DNA from: an uncultured Methanomassiliicoccales archaeon
Lineage (GTDB): Archaea; Thermoplasmatota; Thermoplasmata; RBG-16-68-12; CAYFXO01
Assembly: GCA_964347125.1 (NCBI GenBank)
Contig: CAYFXO010000001.1
Location: forward strand, 5,557 to 37,556
Reading direction: 5' to 3'
DNA length: 32,000 nucleotides
The notes under the pieces are model-generated. The model was given only the letters and a program-made list of their open reading frames with translations. It did not search any database and was not told the DNA's origin. The position numbers and the translations under genes are program-made. Positions 12,403 through 31,755 of the stretch are shown piece after piece (the stretch's first letter is position 1; each line of letters begins with the position of its first letter).

Positions 12403-15400
12403 CTACTTCTTCACCTTCGGCTTCGCCCGCTTCTCGGGCTTCTCGCCCTTCTCCCGCCGACGGAAGCGGATCTCGCCGCGCTGGTACTTCTTGCGAAGCC
12501 ACAGGAGCACGGGGACCGCGATGATCAGCAGGATGATGGCCAGATAGATGAGGGGTCGGACGTAGCCGGGCTCGATGACCCGGACCCAGCCGGGGTTCGC
12601 GTCGTTCGTGTTGTCGCCCCACTCGCCGTCCCATTCGCCCTGGACGGAGGCATTGACGTAGATGGTGTAGTTCCCGATGACATCGCGGGAGAAGGTGATC
12701 TTCGCGGTCTTCGTCTCTCCCGCTGCGAGGCTGTTGTTGACCGGGAGGACCCCAGTCGCGTTGAACCACTGGACGTCCGCGGGGGTCTTCAGCGACACGC
12801 GGTTGCCCGTCTGCCCGCCGGAGAGGAACTCGAACTGCAGCTGGACGTTCGAGGCGTTCGCCCGGCCCTCCAGGTTCTCCACCTGGATGCTCAGGGTCGT
12901 CGTCTGTCCTTGCTCGATGGTGCGAGGCTTCGCGTCGAAGGAGGTGGAGAGCACCCGGACGTTCGGGCGGCTCTCGGGGTCGATGAGGACGACGAGGGTC
13001 ACGTTGACGCTCCCCACGTTCCCCGCCTGGTCCGTCACGTTCAGGGTGACGGTGTACCCCTCGAGGTTCACCTCGTCGTAGACGTGGCTCACGTTGATGA
13101 ACTCCCCGGGCTGGCCGGGGCCCATCCCTTCGCCGTCGTCGAAGGTCCAGTTGAAGGTGAGGTTCGTGATGTCGTCGAAGTTGTCCGTGGTGTCGCTGGC
13201 GTTGAAGTAGACCGTCTGGCCCTCGATGATCTGGACGACCTCCGCGAAGGTCTCGTTGAGGACGACGAACTCCGGCTGGGGCTCGGTGACGTCCTTCACC
13301 CGGACGGAGAGCGTGGCGTTCTGGCTCTCGTGGTCCACCACGTCCGTCACCTTGAGGGTCGCGTTGAACTCGCCGGGCTGGCTGTAGATCTGGGTGGCGG
13401 TCTCGCCGAAGCCGTCGACGGTCCCGTCGCCGTCCCAGTCCCACTCCCAGGTCCCGATGAGGCCGGGGACGGTGCCGAACATCGTGTCGGTGGAGTTGGC
13501 CCCGCTGAATTCCACGGAGGCGCCCTCCTCCACGACGAACGTGGTCCCGTCCATCTCGGCGCCCGAGGTGATGTCCGCGGCGGCCACCGGGTCCTCCACG
13601 TCCACGGAGACGGAGATGTCCCGATAGGTGACGTCCCCGCCCGCTTCCGTGACCGTGAGGTTCACGGTGAAGTTCCCGCCGACGGTGTAGTTGTGGGTGG
13701 CCTGGATGCCGTAGCCGATGAGGGAGGGGTTCGTGTTGTTCCGGAACCTCCAGGTGAAGTTCGCGAAGGGGGAGACGAGGCCGTCGGCGCTGTTCGGGTC
13801 CGTGGAGTCCTCGGCGGAGAACGTGATGTTCTCCATGCCCCGGACGATGACGGTGTAGTTCTCGAAGGACTCGTTGAGGGGGTGGAAGGTGCCGTTGACC
13901 ACCTTCGCCCGGGCCGTCCCGTTGGCGCGCCGCTGGATGTCCAGGGTGGCCGTGGGAACGTCGGGGGCGGAGGCGGGCTTCGTCTTCGGGTCCACGGTGA
14001 CCGTGGTGAAGCCCGTGACCGCGACGTTCGTCGGGTTCGTGGTGTTCCCCACGAGCTCGTACTGGGCGGGGAGTTCGAAGACATACTGGTAGTCCTTCGT
14101 GACCGCGCCGGTGCTGTCGTAGGTGCCGTTCACCACGAGGGTGTACTCCTCTAGGTCGAGTTCGGGGTCGGCCACTGCGTTGTAGATGGCCGTCATGTTG
14201 ACCCAGACCCGGCCGCCCGCGTCGATGGCGGAGTCCGCGTAGGGCGCGAAGGTGGCGGCGAAGGTCAGGGCGTCGCTGCGGTAGTACTCGTTGTCGACGG
14301 TGAGGACATCGCGGGTGACGACGAACCGCGGGCCGCGGTCGAAGAACCAGGTGAGGAAGTTGTCAATCTCCGCGGTCGTCAAGGTGCCGTCACCGTCGCC
14401 GAGGGCGGAGTCGATCTGCAGACGCAGGTTGCTGACCCCGGCGTTCTCCAGGCCGGGGACGGCGCTGTCCGCATTGAGGGACCAGGCCCGCTCGAGCTGG
14501 ATGACGTTCCAGTTCTCGGCGACAAAGCTCACGGTGTTCGTGAAGGTCTCCTTCTCCGCGAGGGAGAGGGTAATGTTGCCCAGGTTCACGGTGCTCCCGG
14601 CGACCGTCAGGCCGCTCAGGGTGTAGGCCGCGTATCCATCGGCGTCCACCACGAGGGTGAAGTTGCCGTTGTAGGTCCCGATCTCGAACTTCGGTCCCGC
14701 AGAGACGCGGGAGAGGGTGCGGTTGTTGTCCTCGTCGTAGAGGACGGCCTTGATGGTCTTCGTGATCCCGAGGCCGCTCGCCGCGTCGAAGACGCGGCCC
14801 CAGACGACTGTCTGAAAGAGGGTGACGTTGTATTCCGTGGGCCCGCCGAGGGGCACGGGCTCGTCCGCGACAGCGTACTCCCGGTCATAGTCGGCGGTGA
14901 GGACGTCGCCATTGAACAAGTCGACGAAGACCGTAATCTCACCGGTGACCAGGTCTGCGTTGTACTCCGAAGTGGGTGTTAGGGGAATCCCGTTCCTGTT
15001 TATCACCAGGGGTGGGATGGGTGGATAAGACAGTCGGCTCGTGTTTGTGAGGTACTCGTAGTCAATTTGGGCGGAGTGATTGTAGAAGCCGACGATGTCG
15101 TCGCCCGGGAATAAGGTCCACATCGAGAGGGACACAATCCCTGTGTTGCGATCAATGGTGTAGTTGGGCATGCCCATGCTAGCATTCTCCACGAGGGGGG
15201 TGTACTCGGTTCCATTCCAGTAGACGAGATCCTCGTTGAGGACGTAAGGGGACAGTCCCACCAGGGTCAGGGGGAACGCGGCCTCGCCGCCTATGGCGTC
15301 AAAGATATTCGTCGAGTTGTCCCAGAACACGGTATGGTTGTATGTCGCCGTTAGGTTGTATTGGGGCGGGAGAGGGGTGTTGTAGGTCACGATGCCCGCC

Positions 15401-16359
15401 GCGGCGTTCAGCACGTAGTCCGACCACACGCTCCCGTTGTTCCGGACCGTGATGTTGAGGATGTCCGCCTTGGCCAAGACCGCCTGGGCCTCGCCGCCGA
15501 GAGATTGCAGCACGAGGGTTTCAGAGAACTGCGCGGTGTAGTTGTAGGACGCGGTCACTTCCGCGTCCGGCCCAAGGGCGGGGGTGAAGCTGACCTCTCC
15601 CGTGGGATAATCTATCGTATAGTCCCCGGGAGACGTCAGGGTCACGGCGTCCGCCACGATCGTTTCTGAGCCGAGGACGACGTTTGGGTTCGCCAGGCGC
15701 CCCGTCTTGCCATGGGGCACAATGTCGATGGTCGCGAAGTGCGGCGAGAGGCCGGTGTGGGTGACGTGAATCTGGTAGGTCCCGCTGTAGAAGTCCAGCG
15801 CGTACGTGCCATCGGTCGCCGTGGTCGTGGCGTTGCTGTACCCCATGTCCGGGTCGATGAGCGTCACCGAGGCCCCCGCGAGGACCTTCCCCGCGGAGTC
15901 GCGGACGGTGCCGGACACCGTCGAGTCGATGACGCGCGTCTCGAGGGGGATGTCCCCGAGGGACTGGTTCTGCCCGAAGTCGAGACGAAGGACGCCGGTG
16001 GTGAAGGTGAAGTAGACCTTCCCGTCCTGGAAGGGGTTCGAGTCGGGTTGGATGATGACCTCGTAGTAGCTGGGCGCGGGAGCCTCCACCTGGAAGTAAC
16101 CGCCCTCGATCGAGAGGGTGTTGGCCACATCGGCGACGCCGTTGGAGATGTCGTCGAGGCGGACACGGATCCCGCTGAGGCCTTCCGCCGGGAGGTTGTA
16201 GGTGCCGGATGCGTCAGTGTCTTCGTAGACCCAGCCAAACAAAATGGGCTTGGCCTGGGTCGCGCTCGCATGCCAGCTCGGCAGTGCCGCCAAGGCGCCC
16301 ATCAGGACGAGGAGCGCCAGCAACACCGCTGCTACACCGTTGGCGTTTCCCGGTTTCAT
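12403..16359 (-). CDS. large cell-surface (S-layer/adhesin-like) glycoprotein: signal peptide, CarboxypepD_reg-like domains, repeated modules, 3 PKD domains, CARDB-like domain, C-terminal TM anchor
   Basis: Signal peptide MKPGNANGVAAVLLALLVLMGALAALPSWHASA. VSGTVRDSAGKVLAGASVTLID...TDGTYAL is carboxypeptidase-regulatory-like. It has three PKD-like units. The C-terminus has a TM helix (LIYLAIILLIIAVPVLLWL) followed by a Lys/Arg tail. There are very many N-x-S/T sequons. Confidence 0.9.
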   Translation of the reverse strand: MKPGNANGVAAVLLALLVLMGALAALPSWHASATQAKPILFGWVYEDTDASGTYNLPAEGLSGIRVRLDDISNGVADVANTLSIEGGYFQVEAPAPSYYEVIIQPDSNPFQDGKVYFTFTTGVLRLDFGQNQSLGDIPLETRVIDSTVSGTVRDSAGKVLAGASVTLIDPDMGYSNATTTATDGTYALDFYSGTYQIHVTHTGLSPHFATIDIVPHGKTGRLANPNVVLGSETIVADAVTLTSPGDYTIDYPTGEVSFTPALGPDAEVTASYNYTAQFSETLVLQSLGGEAQAVLAKADILNITVRNNGSVWSDYVLNAAAGIVTYNTPLPPQYNLTATYNHTVFWDNSTNIFDAIGGEAAFPLTLVGLSPYVLNEDLVYWNGTEYTPLVENASMGMPNYTIDRNTGIVSLSMWTLFPGDDIVGFYNHSAQIDYEYLTNTSRLSYPPIPPLVINRNGIPLTPTSEYNADLVTGEITVFVDLFNGDVLTADYDREYAVADEPVPLGGPTEYNVTLFQTVVWGRVFDAASGLGITKTIKAVLYDEDNNRTLSRVSAGPKFEIGTYNGNFTLVVDADGYAAYTLSGLTVAGSTVNLGNITLSLAEKETFTNTVSFVAENWNVIQLERAWSLNADSAVPGLENAGVSNLRLQIDSALGDGDGTLTTAEIDNFLTWFFDRGPRFVVTRDVLTVDNEYYRSDALTFAATFAPYADSAIDAGGRVWVNMTAIYNAVADPELDLEEYTLVVNGTYDSTGAVTKDYQYVFELPAQYELVGNTTNPTNVAVTGFTTVTVDPKTKPASAPDVPTATLDIQRRANGTARAKVVNGTFHPLNESFENYTVIVRGMENITFSAEDSTDPNSADGLVSPFANFTWRFRNNTNPSLIGYGIQATHNYTVGGNFTVNLTVTEAGGDVTYRDISVSVDVEDPVAAADITSGAEMDGTTFVVEEGASVEFSGANSTDTMFGTVPGLIGTWEWDWDGDGTVDGFGETATQIYSQPGEFNATLKVTDVVDHESQNATLSVRVKDVTEPQPEFVVLNETFAEVVQIIEGQTVYFNASDTTDNFDDITNLTFNWTFDDGEGMGPGQPGEFINVSHVYDEVNLEGYTVTLNVTDQAGNVGSVNVTLVVLIDPESRPNVRVLSTSFDAKPRTIEQGQTTTLSIQVENLEGRANASNVQLQFEFLSGGQTGNRVSLKTPADVQWFNATGVLPVNNSLAAGETKTAKITFSRDVIGNYTIYVNASVQGEWDGEWGDNTNDANPGWVRVIEPGYVRPLIYLAIILLIIAVPVLLWLRKKYQRGEIRFRRREKGEKPEKRAKPKVKK
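12988..13827 (-). repeat. three tandem PKD-like domains within the surface protein
   Basis: FSAEDSTDPN...FTWRF...HNYTVGGNFTVNLTVTEAGG; FSGANSTD...WEWDWDGDG...YSQPGEFNATLKVTD; FNASDTTD...FNWTFDDG...HVYDEVNLEGYTVTLNVTDQAGN. Confidence 0.8.
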
Positions 16360-22468: not shown

Positions 22469-23173
22469 ATGAGCTTCTGCCCGAATTGCGGGACCGGCCT
22501 GACCTACGTGGAGCAGCACAACGCCTGGTATTGCCAGCAGTGTCAGCAGTACGCCCCGCCGCCCGCGCAGCCCGCGGCGCCGGCGGCCCCCGCGGGGGGG
22601 AACGGCCTGTGGCACCAGAACCACTACCGGATTCGGAAGAAGGTCCTGACGGTGGGGAACAAGTACTGGATCGAGGACGGCGGGGGGACGGTCCTGGGCT
22701 TCAGCAAGCAGAAGCTCTTCCGGCTCAAGGAGGACATCCGCATCTTCACGGACGAAGGGATGAGCCAGGAGCTCTTCCGGGTGCACCAGCAACAGCTCGT
22801 GGACACCTGGGGCACCTTCGCGGTCTTCGACAGCGCGACGAACGCCTACCTGGGGGCGATCCGCCGGAAGATGATGGCCTCCATCATCCGGGACGAGTGG
22901 GAGGTGTACGACGCCCAGAACCAGCTCGTCGCGGGGATCTACGAGAAGGCCGGGAGGGGGTTGGCGCGGCGGTTGCTGCCGGGCGGGGCCCTCATCCCGG
23001 AGAAGCTGACGCTCACGTTCCAGGGGGCGCCCGTCGCGGAGATCGACCAGCAGTTCAAGGTCATCGGGGACATCTGGGACCTGAAGTGCATGAACCTCCC
23101 GCCCTACCTGGACCGCCGGGTGGTGCTGGGAGGGCTCCTGCTCATGGGGATGGTGGAGCGGGACAAGAAGTAG
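22469..23173 (+). CDS. N-terminal zinc ribbon fused to a LURP-one-related (LOR/tubby-like, scramblase-fold) domain
   Basis: MSFCPNCG...YCQQC is followed by a Pro/Ala linker. YRIRKKVLTVGNKYWIEDGGGTVLGFSKQKLFRLKEDIRIFTDEG then fits the LOR repeat pattern. GAGGTGAT lies 6 nt upstream of the ATG. Confidence 0.7.
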   Translation: MSFCPNCGTGLTYVEQHNAWYCQQCQQYAPPPAQPAAPAAPAGGNGLWHQNHYRIRKKVLTVGNKYWIEDGGGTVLGFSKQKLFRLKEDIRIFTDEGMSQELFRVHQQQLVDTWGTFAVFDSATNAYLGAIRRKMMASIIRDEWEVYDAQNQLVAGIYEKAGRGLARRLLPGGALIPEKLTLTFQGAPVAEIDQQFKVIGDIWDLKCMNLPPYLDRRVVLGGLLLMGMVERDKK

Positions 23174-23195
23174 GCGGGACCCGCCGTGGTTAGAG

Positions 23196-23269
23196 TGGAC
23201 CCAGCGGGATTTGAACCCGCGGCCTCCAGCTTGCGAAGCTGGCGATCTTCCAGGCTGATCTATGGGCCC
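23196..23269 (-). tRNA. tRNA-Ala (anticodon CGC), no encoded CCA
   Basis: Reverse complement: GGGCCCATAGATCAGCCTGGAAGATCGCCAGCTTCGCAAGCTGGAGGCCGCGGGTTCAAATCCCGCTGGGTCCA. It forms a clean cloverleaf. The anticodon loop TTCGCAA gives CGC. It has the G3:U70 Ala identity pair, the TTCAAAT T-loop and discriminator A73. Confidence 0.95.
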
Positions 23270-23332: not shown

Positions 23333-23352
23333 CCGAAAAAGCCCTTAAATAG
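23333..23352 (+). promoter_or_regulatory. BRE/TATA promoter of the giant protease gene
   Basis: CCGAAAAAGCCCTTAAATAG lies about 45-70 nt upstream of the candidate start codons. Confidence 0.45.
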
Positions 23353-23394: not shown

Positions 23395-26300
23395 TTGGTG
23401 GGGAATGGAGGAGTCGATTTGAGCCCGCGCATCCACTCGCGCCTACTGAGCGTATTGGTCGTTGTCACGCTGTCCTCCTCCGCGTTCGCGTTCTTCCCCG
23501 CGGCGACGGGCGACGTCACAGACGGCGTGGACGTGGCCCCCGCGGACGATTCCCTCGGTCCCGCGGCCCCCACCACGGAGGACCCGCAGACGATCGCGGG
23601 CCTCTATAAACTCGAGGCGGGCCTCCGAAGCCACCTCGACTCCAAGGAGACCGTCCGCGTCCTCATCGCGACCTACGACGTGGGCGCCCTCGGCGTGGCC
23701 CTGGGGGCGGGGGCGGTGGACGCCGCCGACCTCGGTGCCAAGGCCCCCGGCCTCGCGGTCCCCATGGTGGACCTCCAGGGCGTCCGCCTCAAGGAGATCG
23801 CCGCCCTGGACTCCACCGTCGCCATCATGGAGTGGCGGCCCCCGGAGCGGCAGGTCGTTGAGACCGTGGACACCTTCTCGAAGAAGGGCGTGCGCCCCAG
23901 CAACCTCAACTCCACCCTGAACCACCTGGCCCCCCAGGCGTGGGCCGCGGGGTGGACGGGCGACGGGGTGCGCATCTCCGTCATGGACGACGGGGTGGAC
24001 TTCGCCCACCCGGACCTCATGGGGACCATGGCCCGGTTCAACTGGACGAACCTCCCCGCGAACATCCAGGCCGCGAAGCCCCACCTCCGGCACTACGACA
24101 ACTGGCCCATGGCCTTCGACCCCTTCTCCATGTCCAGCTTCATGATGAACAACGGCGAGGCGGAGGGGACGTGGTACGGGAACACCACCTCCACGGACCG
24201 CAACGTCACCCACACCATCCGGATCGACGGCCGGAACGACTTCTGGGACGACGGGAGCGAGCTCGTCGCCACCGACCTCCGGGGGGACATCAACGTCGGC
24301 CAGCCGTCCCACCTGGGGAACGACTTCGACCTCGTCTCCCTGTACGCCACCCAGGACGCGGACTGGTGGTATTTCGGCTTCGACACCTTCACGAACCAGT
24401 CGGACGTGGCCTTCGGCCTCTACATCGACACGGACAACGTCACGGGGTCGGGCGGGGACGTGGACCCGCGAGCGGGGAGCCTCATCACCGCCGTGCCCGA
24501 GCACCGCCCGGAGTTCGTCGTCTACATCGACCACCTGGGCGGGCAGCCCCCGGGGCAGTACGACCGGAACGACACCGTGGAGAACGGGACGGTCTACACC
24601 TGGCTGGGCTCCGCCTGGGACGCCGGGGTGAACATCACGGAGTTCCCCATCAACGGGCAGATCAGCTACAGCGCCTGGGACTTCGAGGATGAGGAGGCGT
24701 TCCTGGAGTTCTCCCTGCCCAAGGCGTTCCTAGGGGACCCCCAGCAGCTCGCGGTGGAGCTGTTCACCGCGGGGGTGAACGCGTCCCACGCCCTGGACAC
24801 CGCCTACTCCGACCCGAACGTGAACTTCCCAGCCCCCGACTGGACGCCGACGCCCACCCAGCTCTCCGCGTTCACCTACGTGGGGCGGGGCTTCTGGATC
24901 CACACCTACGTCCGCTCCGACGACACCGTCGCGGGGAAGCCGAACGTCCAGATGTCGTGGCCCCTGGAGTACCAGGTCACGGGGACCAGCAAGAGCGGCG
25001 GCTACTACTTCGGCGACCACCCGGACGACAACTACCCCCTCACCCGGATTCTCGTGGTGGACGAGGCGGTGGCGGGGGTGTACGACACCGTCTACGTGGA
25101 CCTGGACCACAACCGGGACTTCACGAACGACAAGCCCCTGAAGAAGTACGGGAAGTACTGCGCGGACAAGCAGTGGCGGCCCGCGGACGACCCCGTGGCC
25201 TGCCCGGTCTACGACGAGACCTCGTGGCTGGACTTCTTCGACCCCGCCTCGGGGGTGACGTCCATCGACTACGCCCCGAACGGGACGTGGATTGCCACCG
25301 GGTCCAACGACCACCGGATCCTCCTGTGGGACGCCGCCTCCGGCGCCCAGGTCAACGAGTTCCACGCCCACCGCGGGCGGGTGACGTCCGTGGCCTGGGA
25401 CCTTGCGGGGCTACGCCTCGCCGCGGGCTATGCCGACGCCTCCGGCCGCGGGCAGCACGCCGTGGTCGTGTGGAACTGGGACGGCACGGTGGCCGCCACG
25501 TTCACCGAGAGCGACGGCGGGCACACCGCGGGGGTCACCGCCGTGGCGTGGGACCCCGTCGGGGCGAACAACCGCCTCGTCTCCGCGTCGATGGACGGCA
25601 CCGCGAAGGTCTGGAACGTCGGAACGGGCCTCGTGGCCACCCTCACCGGACACACGGCCGCCGTCGGGACCGCGGACTGGGGCGCCAACGGCATCGCCAC
25701 CGGCTCTGACGACGGGACCGTGCGCCTCTGGGACGCCTCGTGGACCGAGGCGGACTCGGTGGCCCACGGCACGCCCCTCAACGCCATCGCGTTCAGCCCG
25801 AACGGGACGTGGCTCGCCTACGGCGACCGGGCGGGGCTCCTGAGCGTGTGGGACGTGGTCCTGGACGCCTGGAGCACCTGGTCCATCCCCGAGCACCAGA
25901 CCCTCCCGATCACCTCCGTATCCTGGTCCCCCGTGGCCTCCCAGCTCCTCACCACCTCCACGTGGGACGAGGAGACGAACAACTTCGTCCTCGCCCGGTG
26001 GACGGTCAACAACTACAACGACTTCTTCGTCACCGGCTCCAAGACGGGGCAGGCGGCCCACGAGGCCAGCGTGTTCTCCGGGACCTGGTCCACCGACGGC
26101 CTCTCCGTCGTCTCCGGCGGGGAGGAGGCCCGGGCGCGGCGGTGGACGAGCGCCACCCTCTCCCTGGAGGGAGACTACAAGGGCCACGCCCTGGGGTCCA
26201 CCGACTACACGTGGTACCTCACGGGCGACGGCGTCCCGGACGTCTCCGGCGGGATCATCTACTTCATCGCGCAGAACGAGTGGGACTTCGGCAGCGGGAC

Positions 26301-29300
26301 CCTGGAGCAGGTGCCCATCCCCTACTCGGACGTGTGGATCGCCCGCCAGCCGGCCGTGCTGGACCTGCAGAACATCATCCCCGCCAACGGGACCGTCGTC
26401 GCCTTCATGGGCGCCCTGGACCTGGACCAGGGCCACGGCACCCTCGTCGCGTCGAGCCTCGTGGGGCGCGGCCAGTCCACCTACTTCGACGAGGGGACCA
26501 TGGACGTCCCCACGGTGGGCCACGTCATCGGGTTCGCCCCTGACGCCCTCCTCGTGCCCGTGGCGAACGTCTACGCCACGAACTTCTACGACGGCTGGTA
26601 CTTCTCGGTGGAGGGCTACGACGGCACCCCGAACACGGGGGACGAGGCCCACATCATCTCGAACTCCTTCGGCTTCTCCGGGACCTACCACGACGGGTGG
26701 GACTTCAACGCCCGGTTCCTGGACTACCTGGTGAACGACCACGCGGACGGGAACGTGACGATCACGGTGTCCTCGGGGAACTCCGGGTGGGGGTACGGGA
26801 CGGTGTCCACCCCCGCGGCGTCCCCCGCGGTCATCACCGTCGGCGCGGCCACGGACTTCTTCTACCGCCACCTCTCGGGGCTGGAACGGGGCCTCAACCC
26901 GACGTTCGGGGAGGTCACCCCGGAGTCCTCCCGCGGGCCCACGGCCCAGGGGATGCCGGACCCGGACGTGGTGGCGAACGGCCGCATGGCCTTCGGGTCT
27001 GTCGCCCTGAACCAGGTGGACTACCGCCCCTACAACGGCTACGAGGCCACGAACCTCTGGGCGGGGACGTCCCTGGCCTCGCCGGGGGCTGCGGGGATGC
27101 TCGCCCTGGCCTTCCAGGCGTACAAGGAGGCCAACGGGGCGTTCCCCAACGCGAGCGTCGCCAGGAGCCTCCTCATGAGCGGGGCGGACAATCTGAAGTA
27201 CGACCCGCTGGTCCAGGGGGCGGGGCGGGTGAACGCCCTCCGCACCGCGCAGTTGGCGGCCGGGCAGGACGGCTTCCTCGTGGCGCCGAACCTGTGGAAC
27301 CCCGGGGACTACCAGGGCACCCGGTACGAGTCGTTCGCCCACCTCATGGACCCGGGGGACAGCGCCCAGGAGACCTTCACCGTCACGAACGTCGCCCCGG
27401 CGCCGGACACCCTCACCCTCACGGACGCGGTCTTCCAGAAGACCTCCGAGGTGAACTTCACCTTCCAGACCCAGACGGACCTCCCCAACGACCCCGCCCA
27501 CTGGTTCCTCATCCTCCACGGCCTCCCCCTGGCCCTGACGGGGACGGGGGTGTACGACAAGAATTACCAGAAGGTCGCGGCCATCGACGAGGGTGAGTGG
27601 CTGAACGCGGACCTCCTGCGGATCAGCTACCGGGTTCCCATCGGCGACCTGGATCCCGACGGCGACGGGAACACGAACTACTCCTACTTCCTCGAGGTCA
27701 TGGACTGGTCCGAGGACGACTGGACGATGTTCCCGCCGGAGCCGAACACGGGGGCCTTCAGCGACCTGAACCGCCGCCTCATCGTGTTCCCCGACGCGAA
27801 CGTGTGGGAGGGGCGCATCCACGACCCCGCGGGGCGGACCCACGACGGGTTGGCGATGGGCGTCCGGGCGGGCATCCAGCCGGGGAAGCCCGGGGCCGCG
27901 GGGATCAACTTCCTGGTGACCCTGGAGTTCTACCAGAAGGCGGACTGGAACTGGCTGAGCCTCAGCACGGGCTCTCTGTCCCTGGCGGGCGGGGAGACGC
28001 AGACCTTCACCTCGACGGTGGACGTCCCCGCGGGGACCCCCATCGGCGGCTACGAGGGGGCCATCTACATCCAGGGCGACCCCGCCACCGCCTCCGCCAC
28101 TCGGTCGATCCAGGTGCCCTTCTTCGCCAGCTGGGTGTCCGCGGACCACCAGGACATCTCCGCCCTCACGGTCCTCAGGAACGGCGTCCCCCAGACGGCG
28201 GGGGTGGACTACCTGGAGTACCTGGCCGCCGGGATGGTCAACTTCACCGCCCCGCTGAACCCCGGCGACGTGGTGCAGATGGACTACACCTACGCGAACA
28301 CCACGACGATTCCCGTGGTGATCAACGTCCCCTCGAACCAAGTGGAGTTCGGCTTCGGGCAGGACGCGCCGGGGCAGGACGACCTGTTCCGGAACCGCGT
28401 CGTGGGGGGCTTCGGGCAGGGCACCCAATCCGGGGACTGGCGGTTCTACTTCGTGGACGTCCCCGACCAAGGGCAGTTCTCCATCGAGAGCGGCTCGAAG
28501 TTCTTCCTGGACCTCCAGTGGGACCTGGACATGACGGACATCAACGGGTACGCGTTCGGGCCGGGGGCGGTGCCCATCGCCGCGGGCCTCACCGCGGGGG
28601 CGTTCCCCCAGAGCCGGTACGGGCCCTACCTGCTGTACACGACCAACGGCGGCTCCGAGGAGACGGCCACGTTCTTCACGACCACGGGCGGGCCGGAGGA
28701 GATCGTGGCCCCGGGCCTCGTGGGGGGCCTGAACGTCCTGGCGATCCAGAACGTCCTGATGAACGGGACCTACGCGTCGGAGGCCGTCTCCGGGCAGGTG
28801 GGGAGCATGCGCGTGAACCCGCCGGAGATCAAGGTGGTGACGAACGAGCTCTCCGGGTCCCGGGATGTCCTCCTGTACTCCAGCGTGCCGTGGCCCGGCA
28901 TCGGGAGCGTCTCCGCGGGGCCGTCCGCCCCGGAGGAGTTCCTCGACGTCCCCATCCAGCAGGACGTCATCGAGGGCGGCACCTTCATCGACCTCCTCGT
29001 GGGCGGCTCCTACACGAAGGTCGTCAACGTGGAGCCCAGCGCCCTCATCTTCGACGTCCACATCACCTCGAACCCCGGGGACCCGCCGGAGGGGACGGCG
29101 GAGCCCTGCGACGACCTGGACCTGGCCCTGTTCCTCGACGGGAAAGGGCCGGACAACGTGCCGGACGGCGCGGCCCAGGTGGAGGAGTTCGTCGTCTACG
29201 ACGCGGACGCCGACGCGGACGAGCACATCCGCCTCATCAAGCCGACGGTGCAGGACGACCCGGACACGCCCGAGGTCAACGAGGGCGTCGTCGGGGCGCC

Positions 29301-31755
29301 GTACATCATCAAGGTCCTCGGGTTCACGTGCCCCAAGGGCTTCGGGACCTTCAACATGGACCTCACCCTGGTGCAGGGGGAGGGCTTCACGGTGGCGGGG
29401 ACGACCGCCGCCCTCATCCCCGCGTGGAACGTGAGCACCGTCACCCTGCAGTGGAACCTGGACGGGAGCACCCCCGACGGGGAGCTCCTGGGGGCGCTCT
29501 ACGTGGGCCCGGAGAAGGCCCCCCTCACCCTCCTGATCCCCGTGGAGCTGGCCGTCGACCGGGTCGCGCCGGTGATCGAGGGCTTCAGCCTGAACACCGC
29601 CCCGGGCCTCCAGATCGAGAACGCGACGCAGCTGCGGACGAACGATCCCATGCCCCGGGTGGCCATCTCGTTCAGCGACGCGGAGCGCGGCGAGCTTTCG
29701 TACGACTCCGTCCGGCTGTGGCTGGACGGCCAGGACATGACCCCCCAGGCGGAGGTCGTCATCCCGTTCGGCCTGAACGCGGAGGAGAAGCTCGGGTACT
29801 GGCAGGGGGCGGTGACCTTCGGCGTGCCCGCGCCCCTCCCGGACGGCCCCCACTTCCTCACGGTCGCCGTGGGGGACGAGGGGGGGAACGTCGCGTCCCA
29901 GAGCTTCGTCGTCGTCATCGACACCCAGTCCCCGCCCCTGACCCTGGACGACCCGGACGTGAGCTTCACGAACCAGGGGACCCACGCCATCACGGGTGCG
30001 TCGCGGCCCGGAAGCACCGTGGAGATCCCCGGCGGGACCGTGGAGATGGAGGCGGACGGGACCTTCCGGGCGACGGTCACCCTGGCGGAGGGCGCGAACG
30101 TGTTCGAGGTGCGGTCCGTCCCGTGGTACTCCGTGGACGGGTCGGGGAACCCCGTGCCTGCCAACGTGGCCACGGTGGAGAAGACCATCGTCTACGACGC
30201 CCTCGCGCCGGCCTTCGACCAGGCCCTCATCCAGGGGCCGAACCCCACCCGCACGGCGACCGCCCCGGTGACGGGGCGGGTGTCGGACCTCATCGCGGCG
30301 GGGACGCCGTGGGACCCGACGACGCTGGCGGTGACGGTGGCCGGTCGCGCGGTGGCCGTGAACGCGGACGGCTCATTCGAGACCCTCGTGCCGCTGGTGG
30401 AAGGACCGAACGTCATCCCGTTGACGGCGACGGACCTCGCGGGGAACACCGCGTCGGTGAACCGGACCGTGATCCTGGACACCTTGGCGCCGAGCCTTTC
30501 GCTGGAGGCTGTGCCGGAGACGACGAATCGGAGGACCCTCACGATCGAAGGGCAGACGGAGCTGTCGGCGGTCCTCACCCTGAACGGCGGGCTCGTGGTG
30601 ACGGCGGCGGGCGCCTTCACCGTGGACGTGGAGCTCAGCCGGGGGGCGAACGTCCTGGTGGTCGCGGCGGAGGACGTGGCGGGGAACCGGGTGGAGCGCC
30701 GCCTCGTCGTGGAGTACCGCCCGGAGGCGGGGCCGGACCTCCTGCTGTGGGTGCTCGCGCCGCTGCTCCTTGTGGTCGGGCTGCTCCTGGGATTCTTCGT
30801 GGGGCCGCGGGTCCTCGGGCCGCGGGGCCCTGAGGAGGAGGAACCGGAGGAGGCGGAGCCCGAGGAACTCCCGGAGGAGGACGAGCGGATCGCGCGGCTG
30901 CGGGAGGCCTACGAGTCCGGGAGGATCACCGAGGAGGTGTACGAGGAGAACCTGGCCCGCCTCGCGGGGGAAGCCCCGGAGGAAGAAGCTCCGGCGGAAG
31001 AGGAGGAGATCCCGCCCGAAGAGGAGGAGGAGGAACCTCCGGAAGAGGACCAGCGCCCGCCCGAAGAGGAAGAGGCGATCGCGCCGGAGGAAGAGGAGAT
31101 TCCCGAAGAGGCGGTCCCGGCCGAGGAGGACCCCTTGGCCCGGCTGGAGGCCGCCTTCGCCGCCGGCAGGATTTCGCGGGAGGTCTACGAGCAGAACCGG
31201 GCACGGCTGACGGGGGCCCCTCCCGCGGAGGAGGAAGCGGCCGAGGAGGAACTCGAGGAGCCTCCCGAGGAAGTGGAGGAGCCCCTCGCAACGGAGGACC
31301 AAGTCACCCGGCTCCAAAGGGCCTTCGAGGCGGGGAGGATCTCCGAGGCGGTGTACCGCGAGAACCTCGCCCGCATCGGCGTCGAGGCCCCGGAGGAGCC
31401 CGAGGAAGAGGCCGTGGAACCCGAAGAGGAGGTCCCGGAAGAGGACGAGCGAGTGCTCCGGGTTCAGCGGGCCTACGAGGCGGGCAAGATCTCCCGGGAC
31501 GTGTACGAGAAGAACCTGGCCTTGATGGGCTTCGAGGTCCCCGAGGAGGCGGTCGACCTGGGGCCGCTGACGCGGCTTGCCGAGGCGTTCGCGGCGGGTC
31601 GGGTCTCGGGGGACCTGTTCACCCAGAACCTGGGCCGCCTGGAGCTCCCTGACGCGGAGTTGCCCAACAAAGTCGAGAGGCTCTCCGCGGCGTACGAGGC
31701 GGGGAAGATCTCCGAGACGGTGTTCCGCGAGAACGTGAAGCGGCTCCTCAAGTAG
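23395..31755 (+). CDS. giant (about 2780 aa) type-I membrane-anchored S8 subtilisin-like serine protease with an inserted WD40 propeller, Ig-like stalk domains and a cytoplasmic SHOCT-repeat tail
   Basis: There is no ATG start. Candidates are TTG 23395, GTG 23398 and TTG 23419, the last preceded by GGAGGAG plus a 5-nt spacer and giving signal peptide (M)[26 protein letters not shown]8 motifs: [17 protein letters not shown] (Asp, 23986), [11 protein letters not shown] (His, 26434), IISNSFG (Asn, 26662) and [12 protein letters not shown] (Ser, 27070). TM helix at 30739-30804. Confidence 0.9.
25261..26148 (+). repeat. seven WD40-like blades inside the protease
   Basis: Blade ends ...[11 protein letters not shown], ...HAVVVWN, ...[10 protein letters not shown], ...[11 protein letters not shown], ...[10 protein letters not shown], ...NNFVLARWT and ...[10 protein letters not shown], each preceded by an H/GH..V.(S/A)(V/I)(A/S)W-type strand. 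Confidence 0.8.
30880..31749 (+). repeat. six SHOCT-like repeats of about 28 aa separated by Glu/Pro-rich linkers (cytoplasmic tail)
   Basis: Repeat cores: 30880-30963 [28 protein letters not shown]; 31129-31209 [27 protein letters not shown]; 31294-31377 [28 protein letters not shown]; 31441-31527 [29 protein letters not shown]; 31558-31641 [28 protein letters not shown]; 31666-31749 [28 protein letters not shown]. Confidence 0.8.

What the first reader, a model, noticed from the sequence alone, without database searches (positions are those of the whole stretch)
23986..27072. Subtilase with its catalytic Asp and His separated by about 816 residues, including a seven-blade WD40 propeller
The motifs are unambiguous: [12 protein letters not shown] (Asp, aa about 198), HGTLVASS (His, aa about 1014), SNSFG (Asn, about 1090) and [11 protein letters not shown] (Ser, about 1226), numbered from 23395. 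In ordinary S8 enzymes Asp and His are a few dozen residues apart. Tripeptidyl-peptidase II is the known exception, with an insert of about 200 aa.

Here the insert is four times larger. It contains a beta-sandwich-like region ([16 protein letters not shown]...FGLYIDTD) and then seven WD-like blades (25261-26148).

Given the signal peptide and the single distal TM helix, all of this is predicted to be extracellular. A WD40 platform embedded inside a protease domain suggests substrate-gating or a large self-assembling envelope protease complex. I am not aware of this architecture being described.
Basis: partly seen in the sequence, partly recalled or inferred. Interest (0 to 1): 0.75.

Follow-up and report, generated by a model that had tools for sequence, protein, structure and literature searches.

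The report
Surface protease split by nested propeller
A 2786-residue membrane-anchored subtilisin-type protease of an uncultured Thermoplasmata archaeon has about 790 extra residues, including a seven-bladed WD40 propeller, inserted in one loop between its catalytic Asp and His; the layout is real and shared by at least 16 species, but its function is untested.

Summary
In the single ORF 23395-31755 (+, 2786 aa), D198, H1014, N1090 and S1226 sit in textbook S8 motifs, so Asp and His are 816 residues apart.

It is not a chimera or a degenerate duplicate. The N-terminal piece matches S8 profile positions 1-27 and the distal piece positions 53-276. Sixteen GTDB species genomes of uncultured archaea, mostly labelled Thermoplasmata or Thermoplasmatota, carry the same order in one ORF, with all four catalytic residues kept in the six full-length homologues checked.

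Simpler relatives have only about 190-240 residues between Asp and His. The window protein is that core plus two nested additions: a 247-aa beta-rich domain with no Pfam match, and a seven-bladed WD40 propeller. Other relatives carry FN3 arrays or a Kelch propeller inside a WD40 in the same linker, with spacings above 1000 residues.

A specific kinship with tripeptidyl-peptidase II was tested and not found; only the insertion site is shared.

Most likely this is an active, membrane-anchored extracellular protease whose Asp-His loop serves as a port for binding domains. Whether the propeller gates or docks substrates is inference. I class it as a new variant of a known kind, of moderate interest.

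The parts
23395..31755 (+). Whole gene: 2786-aa pre-pro S8 peptidase with a large ectodomain, one TM helix and an acidic cytoplasmic tail
   Evidence: Single ORF. Domain hits. Full-length co-linear homologues P0196-P0199.
23346..23352 (+). TTAAATA, a TATA-box-like element about 45 nt upstream of the TTG start
   Evidence: Read directly from the sequence. Calling it a promoter is inference from archaeal promoter knowledge; it was not tested.
23395..23508 (+). N-terminal signal peptide or signal anchor (aa 1-38; hydrophobic core aa 15-38)
   Evidence: Hydropathy scan. Homologues also begin with a hydrophobic N-terminus.
23572..23901 (+). Probable propeptide-like region (aa 60-169)
   Evidence: Inference. 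It is poorly conserved, 15-30% identity. In the simple relative P0043, the equivalent region plus the catalytic domain superposes on unprocessed pro-Tk-subtilisin.
23902..24219 (+). S8 catalytic domain, piece 1 (aa 170-275), holding catalytic Asp D198 (nt 23986-23988)
   Evidence: Pfam S8 profile positions 1-27. Aligns to furin 28-60 and subtilisin BPN' 13-43. pLDDT about 95 in the model. D is conserved in orthologues.
24220..24960 (+). Nested insert 1 (aa 276-522): beta-rich domain with no Pfam match, absent from the simple family members
   Evidence: Alignment with simple relatives. Segment mapping. No Pfam hit. Strands predicted in the model. 36-60% identity among orthologues.
24961..25179 (+). 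Core linker, first half (aa 523-595; includes [15 protein letters not shown]), shared by the whole family
   Evidence: Present in nearly all relatives. It is the most conserved segment, 57-76% identity.
25207..26184 (+). Nested insert 2: seven-bladed WD40 beta-propeller (aa about 605-930)
   Evidence: Pfam WD40 E = 1.4e-31. PDB WD40 sequence hits. About 28 strands in the model. Foldseek TM 0.87 to the seven-bladed 7bie_A. 20-37% identity among orthologues.
26215..26424 (+). Core linker, second half (aa 941-1010; includes [16 protein letters not shown]), ending in the strand that leads back into the S8 fold
   Evidence: Shared with simple relatives. A strand at aa 1001-1005 precedes the His helix in the model.
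26425..27264 (+). S8 catalytic domain, piece 2 (aa 1011-1290), holding H1014 (26434-26436), N1090 (26662-26664) and S1226 (27070-27072)
   Evidence: Pfam S8 profile positions 53-276, E = 1.8e-28. Residues are conserved in orthologues.
27265..29694 (+). Post-catalytic ectodomain (aa 1291-2100) with no confident Pfam match; includes a small domain at aa 1592-1631 that recurs elsewhere in homologues
   Evidence: No Pfam hit better than E = 0.1. 37-52% identity to orthologues. Weak match to the inserted mini-domain of P0004 and P0009.
29695..30714 (+). Ig-like stalk (aa 2101-2440): Big_13, Glucodextran_B x3 and Big_6 domains
   Evidence: Pfam.
30736..30804 (+). Single transmembrane helix (aa 2448-2470)
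   Evidence: Hydropathy peak 2.73. The equivalent TM is present in P0197, P0198, P0199 and P0202.
30817..31752 (+). Acidic cytoplasmic tail (aa 2475-2786) with six SHOCT/DUF1707-like repeats separated by Glu/Pro-rich linkers
   Evidence: Pfam DUF1707 E = 4.5e-9 and a weak SHOCT hit. Sequence and composition. Similar tails in P0197-P0199.

Best explanation
Gene 23395-31755 encodes a giant, membrane-anchored, extracellular subtilase (MEROPS family S8) of an uncultured Thermoplasmata-type archaeon.

Shown:
- Its single catalytic domain is built from two distant sequence pieces, aa 170-275 with Asp198 and aa 1011-1290 with His1014, Asn1090 and Ser1226.
- Everything between them leaves and re-enters the fold at one surface loop, between positions equivalent to subtilisin BPN' 43 and the strand before His64.
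- That loop carries a family-wide core linker of about 200 residues. Two further domains have been nested into the linker in this lineage: a 247-aa beta-rich domain of unknown fold family and a seven-bladed WD40 propeller.
- The whole arrangement is inherited, conserved and catalytically intact in at least 16 species.

Inferred:
- The protein is exported and matures like other pro-subtilases.
- It is held on the cell surface by a C-terminal TM helix and an Ig-like stalk.
- It cleaves extracellular proteins or peptides.
- The nested propeller and beta domain sit beside the catalytic domain as binding modules that select, dock or restrict substrates or partners.
- The Asp-His loop of this family acts as an evolutionary port, into which different binding domains (WD40, Kelch, FN3 arrays) have been plugged in different lineages.
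For: - Motifs and spacing.
- The two pieces match complementary halves of one Pfam S8 profile, positions 1-27 and 53-276. Piece 1 aligns to subtilisin BPN' 13-43 and furin 28-60 at the catalytic Asp.
- Simple relatives such as P0043 and P0012 pass from the same Asp motif to the same His motif in 188-240 residues.
- The AlphaFold2 model of P0043 (pTM 0.74) superposes on whole subtilisins across the insert: 269-residue targets, 511 alignment columns, TM 0.79.
- In the window model (pLDDT 77, pTM 0.70) the Asp piece has pLDDT about 95 and the propeller is well formed.
- The co-linear order A-B-C-WD40-E-F is found in full-length representatives P0196-P0202 and in 16 GTDB species genomes, each in one ORF.
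- D, H, N and S are conserved in all six full-length homologues checked. Segment identity is 44-65% for the S8 pieces and 20-37% for WD40.
- Other domains occupy the same linker in relatives: Kelch and WD40 in P0214, FN3 in P0326 and P0234.
- Topology. Ig-like stalk and SHOCT-like tail.
- Archaeal context: aRF1 and ThiDN genes; homologues named Thermoplasmata.
- Positions 42/43 of subtilisins are a reported insertion site (PMC9549277).
Against: - No coordinates or PAE of the models were available. Triad geometry in the window protein and the position of the propeller relative to the active-site cleft were therefore not measured.
- Closure of the S8 fold was shown directly only for the simple relative P0043. 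For the window protein it is indirect, resting on homology and pLDDT.
- WD40 is the least conserved segment (20-37% identity), so its role could be loose or structural.
- Activity, export, processing and substrates are all untested.
- The signal peptide was judged by hydropathy only.
- The literature warns that extracellular peptidase genes in such archaea do not by themselves show protein catabolism (PMC9123169).
Confidence: 0.72

Rival explanations
1. The propeller is a gating lid. As in prolyl oligopeptidase (S9), where a seven-bladed propeller is inserted between the two sequence pieces of the catalytic domain and covers the active site, the WD40 domain would here restrict access to short peptides. 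That would turn an endoprotease fold into a surface oligopeptidase.
For: The sequence logic is the same: a propeller nested inside a serine-peptidase catalytic domain. pTM 0.70 suggests a defined inter-domain arrangement. The S9 precedent comes from established knowledge (Fulop et al. 1998) and was not tested here.
Against: The insertion leaves the S8 fold at the BPN' 43/44 loop. From my knowledge of subtilisin structure, that loop is not part of the substrate cleft. Relatives carry FN3 arrays instead of a propeller at this port, which fits docking better than lidding. The position of the propeller could not be measured.
Confidence: 0.2
2. It is a pseudo-protease or mainly structural envelope protein. 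The S8 fold would serve only as a scaffold for a large surface array, and catalysis would be irrelevant.
For: The protein is huge, with an Ig-like stalk, a TM anchor and 23 N-glycosylation sequons, like archaeal surface proteins. Another large PKD surface protein lies nearby.
Against: D, H, N and S are all conserved, within intact motifs, across homologues that share only about 39-54% identity overall. The S8 pieces are among the best-conserved segments.
Confidence: 0.08
3. It is an archaeal member of the tripeptidyl-peptidase II lineage, and would therefore assemble into a giant self-compartmentalising exopeptidase.
For: The extra sequence is at the same place, between Asp and His, and the core linker is of similar size (188-240 aa). 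TPPII is among the PDB sequence hits for the His-Ser part (3lxu, E = 5.8e-21).
Against: - A profile of the core linker finds nothing in TPPII, even at E <= 10.
- Foldseek ranks 3lxu only 43rd, behind ordinary subtilisins.
- No TPPII-specific Pfam domains were found.
- The predicted location is extracellular, not cytosolic.
Confidence: 0.05
4. Artefact: an assembly chimera or frameshift fusion, or the N-terminal Asp motif is a remnant of a second, degenerate S8 domain while another Asp near the His completes the triad.
For: None beyond the unusual spacing.
Against: - The ORF is uninterrupted and composition across it is even.
- The same order occurs in 16 independently assembled species genomes and in several full-length cluster representatives.
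- Both junctions are also seen in separate fragments: P0003 and P0005 for Asp side into WD40, and P0039, P0040 and P0042 for WD40 into the His side.
- The two pieces match complementary, non-overlapping parts of the S8 profile.
- The Pfam match to the distal piece starts only at profile position 53, so no second Asp-bearing N-terminal S8 segment lies near the His.
Confidence: 0.02

Closest known systems
Tripeptidyl-peptidase II (MEROPS S08.090; PDB 3LXU)
   Same: An S8 enzyme with a large insertion, about 200 aa from established knowledge, between the catalytic Asp and His. The His-Ser part is detectably related.
   Different: No detectable homology in the insert. No TPPII C-terminal domains. 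Here the protein is predicted to be extracellular and membrane-anchored, and the linker is about four times longer, with two nested domains.
[quoted passage not shown]
   Same: A whole folded domain is nested in a surface loop of the S8 catalytic domain and is thought to influence substrate binding (PMC5177683 abstract).
   Different: From knowledge, the PA domain is a single insert of about 120 aa lying between His and Ser. Here the insert lies between Asp and His, is about 790 aa long, has several tiers, and contains a WD40 propeller. No PA domain was found.
Tk-SP and Tk-subtilisin of Thermococcus kodakarensis, and the KP-43 subfamily (PDB 3AFG, 2Z2Z, 1WMD)
   Same: These are the closest solved relatives of the catalytic domain by profile and by fold. 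They are made as pro-enzymes with an N-terminal propeptide.
   Different: They have an ordinary Asp-His spacing. The PDB alignments show a gap across the whole linker.
Prolyl oligopeptidase family S9 (clan SC)
   Same: A seven-bladed beta-propeller is nested between the N- and C-terminal sequence pieces of a serine-peptidase catalytic domain. This is the best-known example of a propeller controlling protease access (established knowledge).
   Different: The catalytic fold is unrelated (alpha/beta hydrolase, not subtilisin) and the propeller is not of the WD40 type. Whether the propeller covers the active site here is unknown.
NLR-like S8-NACHT-WD40/TPR proteases next to bacterial and fungal gasdermins
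   Same: They combine a subtilase domain with WD40 repeats in one polypeptide (papers found).
   Different: The domains there are in tandem, with an NTPase between them, and the proteins are cytosolic. Here WD40 is nested inside the catalytic domain, no NACHT or NB-ARC domain is present, and the protein is predicted to be extracellular.

Membership tests
Peptidase family S8 (subtilases, clan SB) | Catalytic residues in the order Asp, His, Ser within the conserved motifs, plus the oxyanion-hole Asn | tested here: met
   D198, H1014, N1090 and S1226. Pfam PF00082 E = 1.8e-28 plus the N-terminal piece at profile positions 1-27. Alignment to subtilisin D32. Conserved in six homologues.
Peptidase family S8 (subtilases, clan SB) | A single subtilisin alpha/beta fold formed by both sequence pieces | tested here: inconclusive
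   Met for the simple relative P0043, whose Foldseek alignments span the insert with TM up to 0.79 to whole subtilisins. For the window protein the evidence is only indirect: pLDDT about 95 for the Asp piece and pTM 0.70. No coordinates were available.
Peptidase family S8 (subtilases, clan SB) | Serine-dependent peptidase activity | not testable with these tools
   Needs expression of the ectodomain with an S1226A control.
Tripeptidyl-peptidase II | Large insertion located between the catalytic Asp and His | tested here: met
   The position is shared. The family core spacing of 188-240 aa is similar to the spacing recalled for TPPII (Asp44 to His264, from memory; not checked here).
Tripeptidyl-peptidase II | Homology of the insert itself to the TPPII insert | tested here: not met
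   The core-linker profile A3 against the PDB gave no TPPII hit at E <= 10. Foldseek ranks 3lxu 43rd. hhalign against a TPP2 sequence recalled from memory aligns only from about 20 residues before the His.
Tripeptidyl-peptidase II | TPPII-specific central and C-terminal domains; cytosolic giant homo-oligomer | tested here: not met
   No such Pfam domains. The signal sequence and TM helix point to a surface location. Oligomeric state is not testable here.
WD40 beta-propeller | WD40 repeats forming a closed seven-bladed propeller | tested here: met
   Pfam WD40 E = 1.4e-31. PDB sequence hits to WD40 proteins. About 28 strands in the model. TM 0.87 to the seven-bladed 7bie_A.
Prolyl-oligopeptidase-like propeller-gated peptidase (a 'works like' comparison, not membership) | The propeller covers the active site and limits substrate size | not testable with these tools
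NLR-like S8-NTPase-WD40 proteases | A central NACHT/NB-ARC NTPase between the protease and the repeats | tested here: not met
   No NTPase domain among the Pfam hits. WD40 lies inside the S8 domain.

The most novel reading that the evidence does not exclude
The Asp-His loop of this S8 family is a modular docking port. Lineages have independently plugged different binding domains into one surface loop of a working protease: WD40 at two different sites, Kelch within WD40, and FN3 arrays. In the window protein the seven-bladed propeller would be positioned to gate or feed the active site. This would be a subtilase counterpart of the propeller-gated S9 and tricorn peptidases, but displayed on the archaeal cell surface.
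Probability: 0.25. Interest if true: 0.75.

Novelty: new variant of a known kind. Interest (0 to 1): 0.55.

Why it matters
It shows how far a classic enzyme fold can be interrupted. About 790 residues, holding at least two further folded domains nested inside a shared core linker, hang from one loop between two catalytic residues, yet the triad is conserved across many species.

That makes the family a natural test case for domain-insertion tolerance, for co-translational folding of discontinuous domains, and for engineering subtilases with built-in binding modules.

Biologically, these giant surface proteases are widespread in uncultured Thermoplasmatota. The role of that group's extracellular peptidases in sediment protein turnover is debated (PMC9123169). 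A propeller-bearing form alongside a simple paralogue in the same genome suggests specialised substrates.

Tried and rejected
1. TPPII kinship was rejected as a membership claim. The core-linker profile against the PDB found nothing in TPPII. Foldseek of the P0043 model ranked 3lxu 43rd. hhalign against a TPP2 sequence I recalled from memory aligned only the His-Ser part.
2. Foldseek of the window model against the PDB returned only WD40 proteins, so it said nothing about the S8 part. I therefore modelled the simple relative P0043 instead.
4. An exact-sequence look-up of the window protein found no record, so the source organism is not identified beyond 'Thermoplasmata-like archaeon'. The best homologue is 54% identical.
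5. Literature searches for a nested WD40 or propeller in a subtilase found nothing relevant. A search for TPPII Asp44/His264 found no usable paper.
6. NCBIfam gave no specific family, only sub-threshold hits.
7. Chimera and second-Asp explanations were rejected (see rival explanations).
8. A neighbour-joining tree of the core segments groups the WD40-bearing proteins apart from those with WD40 inside insert 1. The tree has no support values, so I use it only as a hint of independent insertions.

Full report
**1. The observation**

The window holds one uninterrupted ORF, 23395-31755 on the + strand, 2786 aa, starting with TTG.
- [12 protein letters not shown] at aa 197, with D198 at nt 23986-23988.
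- HGTLVASS at aa 1014.
- SNSFG at aa 1089, with N1090.
- [11 protein letters not shown] at aa 1224, with S1226 at nt 27070-27072.

The Asp-His spacing is 816 residues. Base composition is even across the gene, GC 0.67-0.73.

The scores exclude chance:
- Pfam Peptidase_S8 has E = 1.8e-28 on aa 1011-1267, but covers only profile positions 53-276 of 288.
- Scanned alone, the N-terminal 620 aa match profile positions 1-27 at aa 189-236 (E = 0.008, below the family cut-off on its own).
- The same stretch aligns to furin 28-60 and subtilisin BPN' 13-43, which places D198 on BPN' Asp32.

The two pieces are therefore complementary, non-overlapping parts of one S8 domain.

WD40 is strongly detected (Pfam E = 1.4e-31; PDB WD40 proteins).

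**2. The organism and neighbourhood**

Neighbouring genes include an archaeal-type release factor aRF1, arginyl-tRNA synthetase, a ThiD-ThiN fusion, GNAT and JAB proteins, and a 1318-aa PKD surface protein. A tRNA-Ala(CGC) lies at 23195-23269 on the minus strand. A TTAAATA box lies about 45 nt upstream of the start codon.

All close homologues that carry a name come from Thermoplasmata, Thermoplasmatota, 'Methanomassiliicoccales' or 'Methanobacteriota' MAGs. The exact protein is not on record, and the best homologue is 54% identical. The source is an undescribed relative of those MAGs.

**3. Anatomy, from comparison with relatives**

Searches with the N-terminal half, the C-terminal half and the middle of the region and an exhaustive representative search recovered a large family. 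I cut the window protein into six segments and mapped them on all fetched proteins and on 79 GTDB loci:

| Segment | Residues | Content |
|---|---|---|
| A | 170-275 | S8 piece with Asp |
| B | 276-522 | Insert 1 |
| C | 523-595 | Core linker, first half |
| W | about 605-930 | WD40 propeller |
| E | 941-1010 | Core linker, second half |
| F | 1011-1290 | S8 piece with His, Asn, Ser |

Three things follow.

(a) Most relatives are A-C-E-F only, with an Asp-His spacing of 188-240 residues. Examples are P0043, P0012 and P0225. They occur in Thermoplasmatota and Poseidoniales, and in MAGs labelled Thermococcus and Aciduliprofundum. They also occur in bacterial Chloroflexota, Armatimonadota, Coriobacteriia and Actinomycetes MAGs.

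(b) The window protein is that core with two additions (alignment). B is nested between A and C. The propeller is nested between C and E, that is, between '...[10 protein letters not shown]' and '[16 protein letters not shown]...'.

(c) The same order, A-B-C-W-E-F, occurs in one ORF in full-length representatives P0196-P0200 and P0202 (2324-2687 aa when complete). It also occurs in 16 GTDB species-representative genomes assembled by many different groups (L001-L014, L016, L017; L015 is a partial copy). Separate short fragments independently cover each junction: P0003 and P0005 run from the Asp side into WD40, and P0039, P0040 and P0042 run from WD40 into the His side.

An assembly chimera is excluded.

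**4. Is the enzyme intact?**

In an alignment with six full-length homologues, D, H, N and S are all conserved within their motifs. Identity to the window protein, by segment:

| Segment | Identity |
|---|---|
| A | 44-55% |
| B | 36-60% |
| C | 57-76% |
| WD40 | 20-37% |
| E | 38-64% |
| F | 44-65% |
| Propeptide-like region | 15-30% |

The propeller evolves fastest but is retained. The N-terminal hydrophobic segment, the C-terminal TM helix and the acidic tail with SHOCT-like repeats recur in P0197-P0199. P0202 keeps the hydrophobic N-terminus, the TM helix and an acidic tail.

**5. Structure predictions**

AlphaFold2 on aa 150-1300, with a 72-sequence alignment, gave mean pLDDT 77 and pTM 0.70.
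- The Asp piece (protein aa 170-259) has pLDDT about 95.
- Strand e1 ends at D198.
- A strand at aa 1001-1005 leads into a helix starting at H1014, as in subtilisin.
- About 28 strands between aa 605 and 929 make seven blades.

Foldseek against the PDB returned only WD40 proteins. The seven-bladed designer propeller 7bie_A scored TM 0.87 normalised to the target.

Because the propeller swamped that search, I modelled the simple relative P0043 (pLDDT 74, pTM 0.74; the linker has pLDDT about 86-98). Its best matches are unprocessed pro-Tk-subtilisin (E = 5e-13). Ordinary 269-275-residue subtilisins align over about 511 columns with TM 0.77-0.79. The subtilisin fold is therefore matched on both sides of a gap of about 240 columns, which is direct support that the fold closes around the linker in this family.

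For the window protein itself, closure is inferred from homology and confidence values.

**6. Where the insertion sits**

Homology to BPN' runs to residue 43 (window aa 209). It resumes at the strand preceding His64. The whole stretch of about 790 residues therefore replaces a junction of a residue or two.

Positions 42/43 are reported as an insertion site among phylogenetically intermediate subtilisins (PMC9549277).

**7. Relation to TPPII**

TPPII is the textbook S8 enzyme with about 200 extra residues between Asp and His (established knowledge). The review PMC9549277 places it in the pyrolysin group.

I tested whether this family is TPPII-like beyond the shared site. It is not demonstrably so:
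- A profile of nine core domains hits 3lxu only over the His-Ser part (E = 5.8e-21), behind Tk-SP, KP-43 and SubHal.
- A profile of the core linker alone finds no TPPII, even at E <= 10.
- Foldseek ranks 3lxu 43rd.
- No TPPII-specific domains are found.

**8. The linker as an insertion hot spot**

Asp-His spacings in the family fall into three groups: 188-240, 435-600 and 763-1090 residues. Segment maps show still larger cases, such as P0214, where the His-Ser piece starts at residue 1495, and P0326, where it starts at 1348.
- P0214 has a Kelch propeller inside a WD40 propeller inside insert 1.
- P0326 and P0234 have FN3 arrays in the linker.
- A small domain of about 40-65 aa, DUF2460-like, recurs at several sites, including right after the Asp motif and after the Ser. 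It also appears at window aa 1592-1631.

In a neighbour-joining tree of core segments (no support values), the proteins with WD40 between C and E cluster together. Those with WD40 inside insert 1 fall in another clade. This hints at independent acquisitions at two sites.

Six MAGs carry both the nested form and a simple paralogue.

**9. Topology and the rest of the protein**

Hydropathy shows an N-terminal hydrophobic core (aa 15-38) and one strong TM segment (aa 2448-2470). The ectodomain is acidic (pI 4.2) and has 23 N-glycosylation sequons.

After the catalytic domain come about 800 residues with no confident Pfam match, then the Ig-like domains Big_13, Glucodextran_B x3 and Big_6. The tail of about 310 residues carries six SHOCT/DUF1707-like repeats separated by Glu/Pro linkers.

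No dedicated signal-peptide predictor was available.

**10. Most likely mechanism**

Shown: this is a discontinuous but intact S8 catalytic domain with a conserved three-tier insertion at one loop, and it belongs to a family in which that loop repeatedly accepts binding-type domains.

Inferred:
- Export, propeptide-assisted folding and autoprocessing as in Tk-subtilisin.
- Display on the cell surface on an Ig-like stalk.
- Proteolysis of extracellular proteins or peptides.
- WD40 and insert 1 acting as substrate- or partner-binding modules beside the catalytic domain.

The variant in which the propeller lids the active site, as in prolyl oligopeptidase, cannot be excluded. I rate it lower because FN3 arrays occupy the same port in relatives, and because the BPN' 43/44 loop is not part of the cleft (the latter from my own knowledge).

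Extracellular peptidases are common in Thermoplasmatota MAGs, but their presence does not by itself show protein catabolism (PMC9123169).

**11. Novelty and verdict**

Domain insertion into subtilases is known (TPPII; the PA domain, PMC5177683). Propeller-controlled serine peptidases are also known (S9, tricorn). I found no description of a WD40 propeller, or of multi-tier nesting, inside an S8 catalytic domain. Databases label these proteins only 'S8 family serine peptidase' or 'hypothetical protein'.

I class it as a new variant of a known kind. The architecture is real, conserved and striking for protein-fold evolution. Its function is untested and, in outline, it is an ordinary surface protease. 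Interest: 0.55.

Noticed in passing
window 23195-23269 (-) and 23346-23352: A tRNA-Ala(CGC) gene lies immediately upstream of the giant gene. A TTAAATA TATA-like box lies about 45 nt before the TTG start codon, and a GTG follows at 23398.
   Followed up: partly
window 30817-31752 (aa 2475-2786): The cytoplasmic tail has six SHOCT/DUF1707-like repeats (consensus roughly RLxxAYxxGRIS..VY..NL.RL) separated by long Glu/Pro-rich linkers. Similar tails occur in homologues P0197-P0199. Its role is unknown; signalling or cytoskeletal anchoring are possibilities.
   Followed up: partly
window 28168-28287 (aa 1592-1631); P0004, P0007, P0009, P0042, P0197, P0200: A small beta domain (motif 'Y..D...G.vtFt.pL..GD.v.a.Y.Y', DUF2460-like in Pfam for relatives) recurs at different positions in family members. 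It is found right after the catalytic Asp motif, after the catalytic Ser, and in the post-catalytic region of the window protein. It behaves like a mobile mini-domain.
   Followed up: partly
P0214 (aa 169-1500), P0326, P0234; loci L025, L029: Relatives carry other cargo in the same Asp-His linker. P0214 has a Kelch propeller inside a WD40 propeller inside insert 1, and its His-Ser piece starts only at residue 1495. P0326 and P0234 have arrays of FN3 domains. L025 and L029 have comparably long A-to-C gaps whose content I did not identify.
   Followed up: partly
loci L007+L019, L002+L021, L003+L023, L004+L022, L014+L030, L011+L031: Six Thermoplasmata-type MAGs encode both the nested WD40 form and a simple A-C-E-F paralogue of the same protease family.
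   Followed up: partly
window 12403-16359 (-): A second large predicted surface protein (1318 aa) with PKD and CarboxypepD_reg domains and a sub-threshold DUF2460-like hit, the Pfam family that also matches the mini-domain in P0214 and P0326.
   Followed up: no
window 22469-23173 (+): A 234-aa ORF lies upstream of the tRNA-Ala gene that precedes the giant gene. It has an N-terminal zinc-ribbon-like CxxC...CxxC motif and a weak LURP-one-related (tubby/scramblase-like) Pfam hit.
   Followed up: no
window 25411-29985 (-): A 1524-aa antisense ORF overlaps the protease gene. It is presumably a shadow ORF of the kind produced by very high GC content. This was not tested.
   Followed up: no
window aa 589 and 603 (nt 25159-25161 and 25201-25203): Two of the protein's only four cysteines lie 14 residues apart just upstream of the WD40 insertion. 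The pair is absent from the P0001 sequence I inspected; other homologues were not checked. A local disulfide is possible.
   Followed up: no
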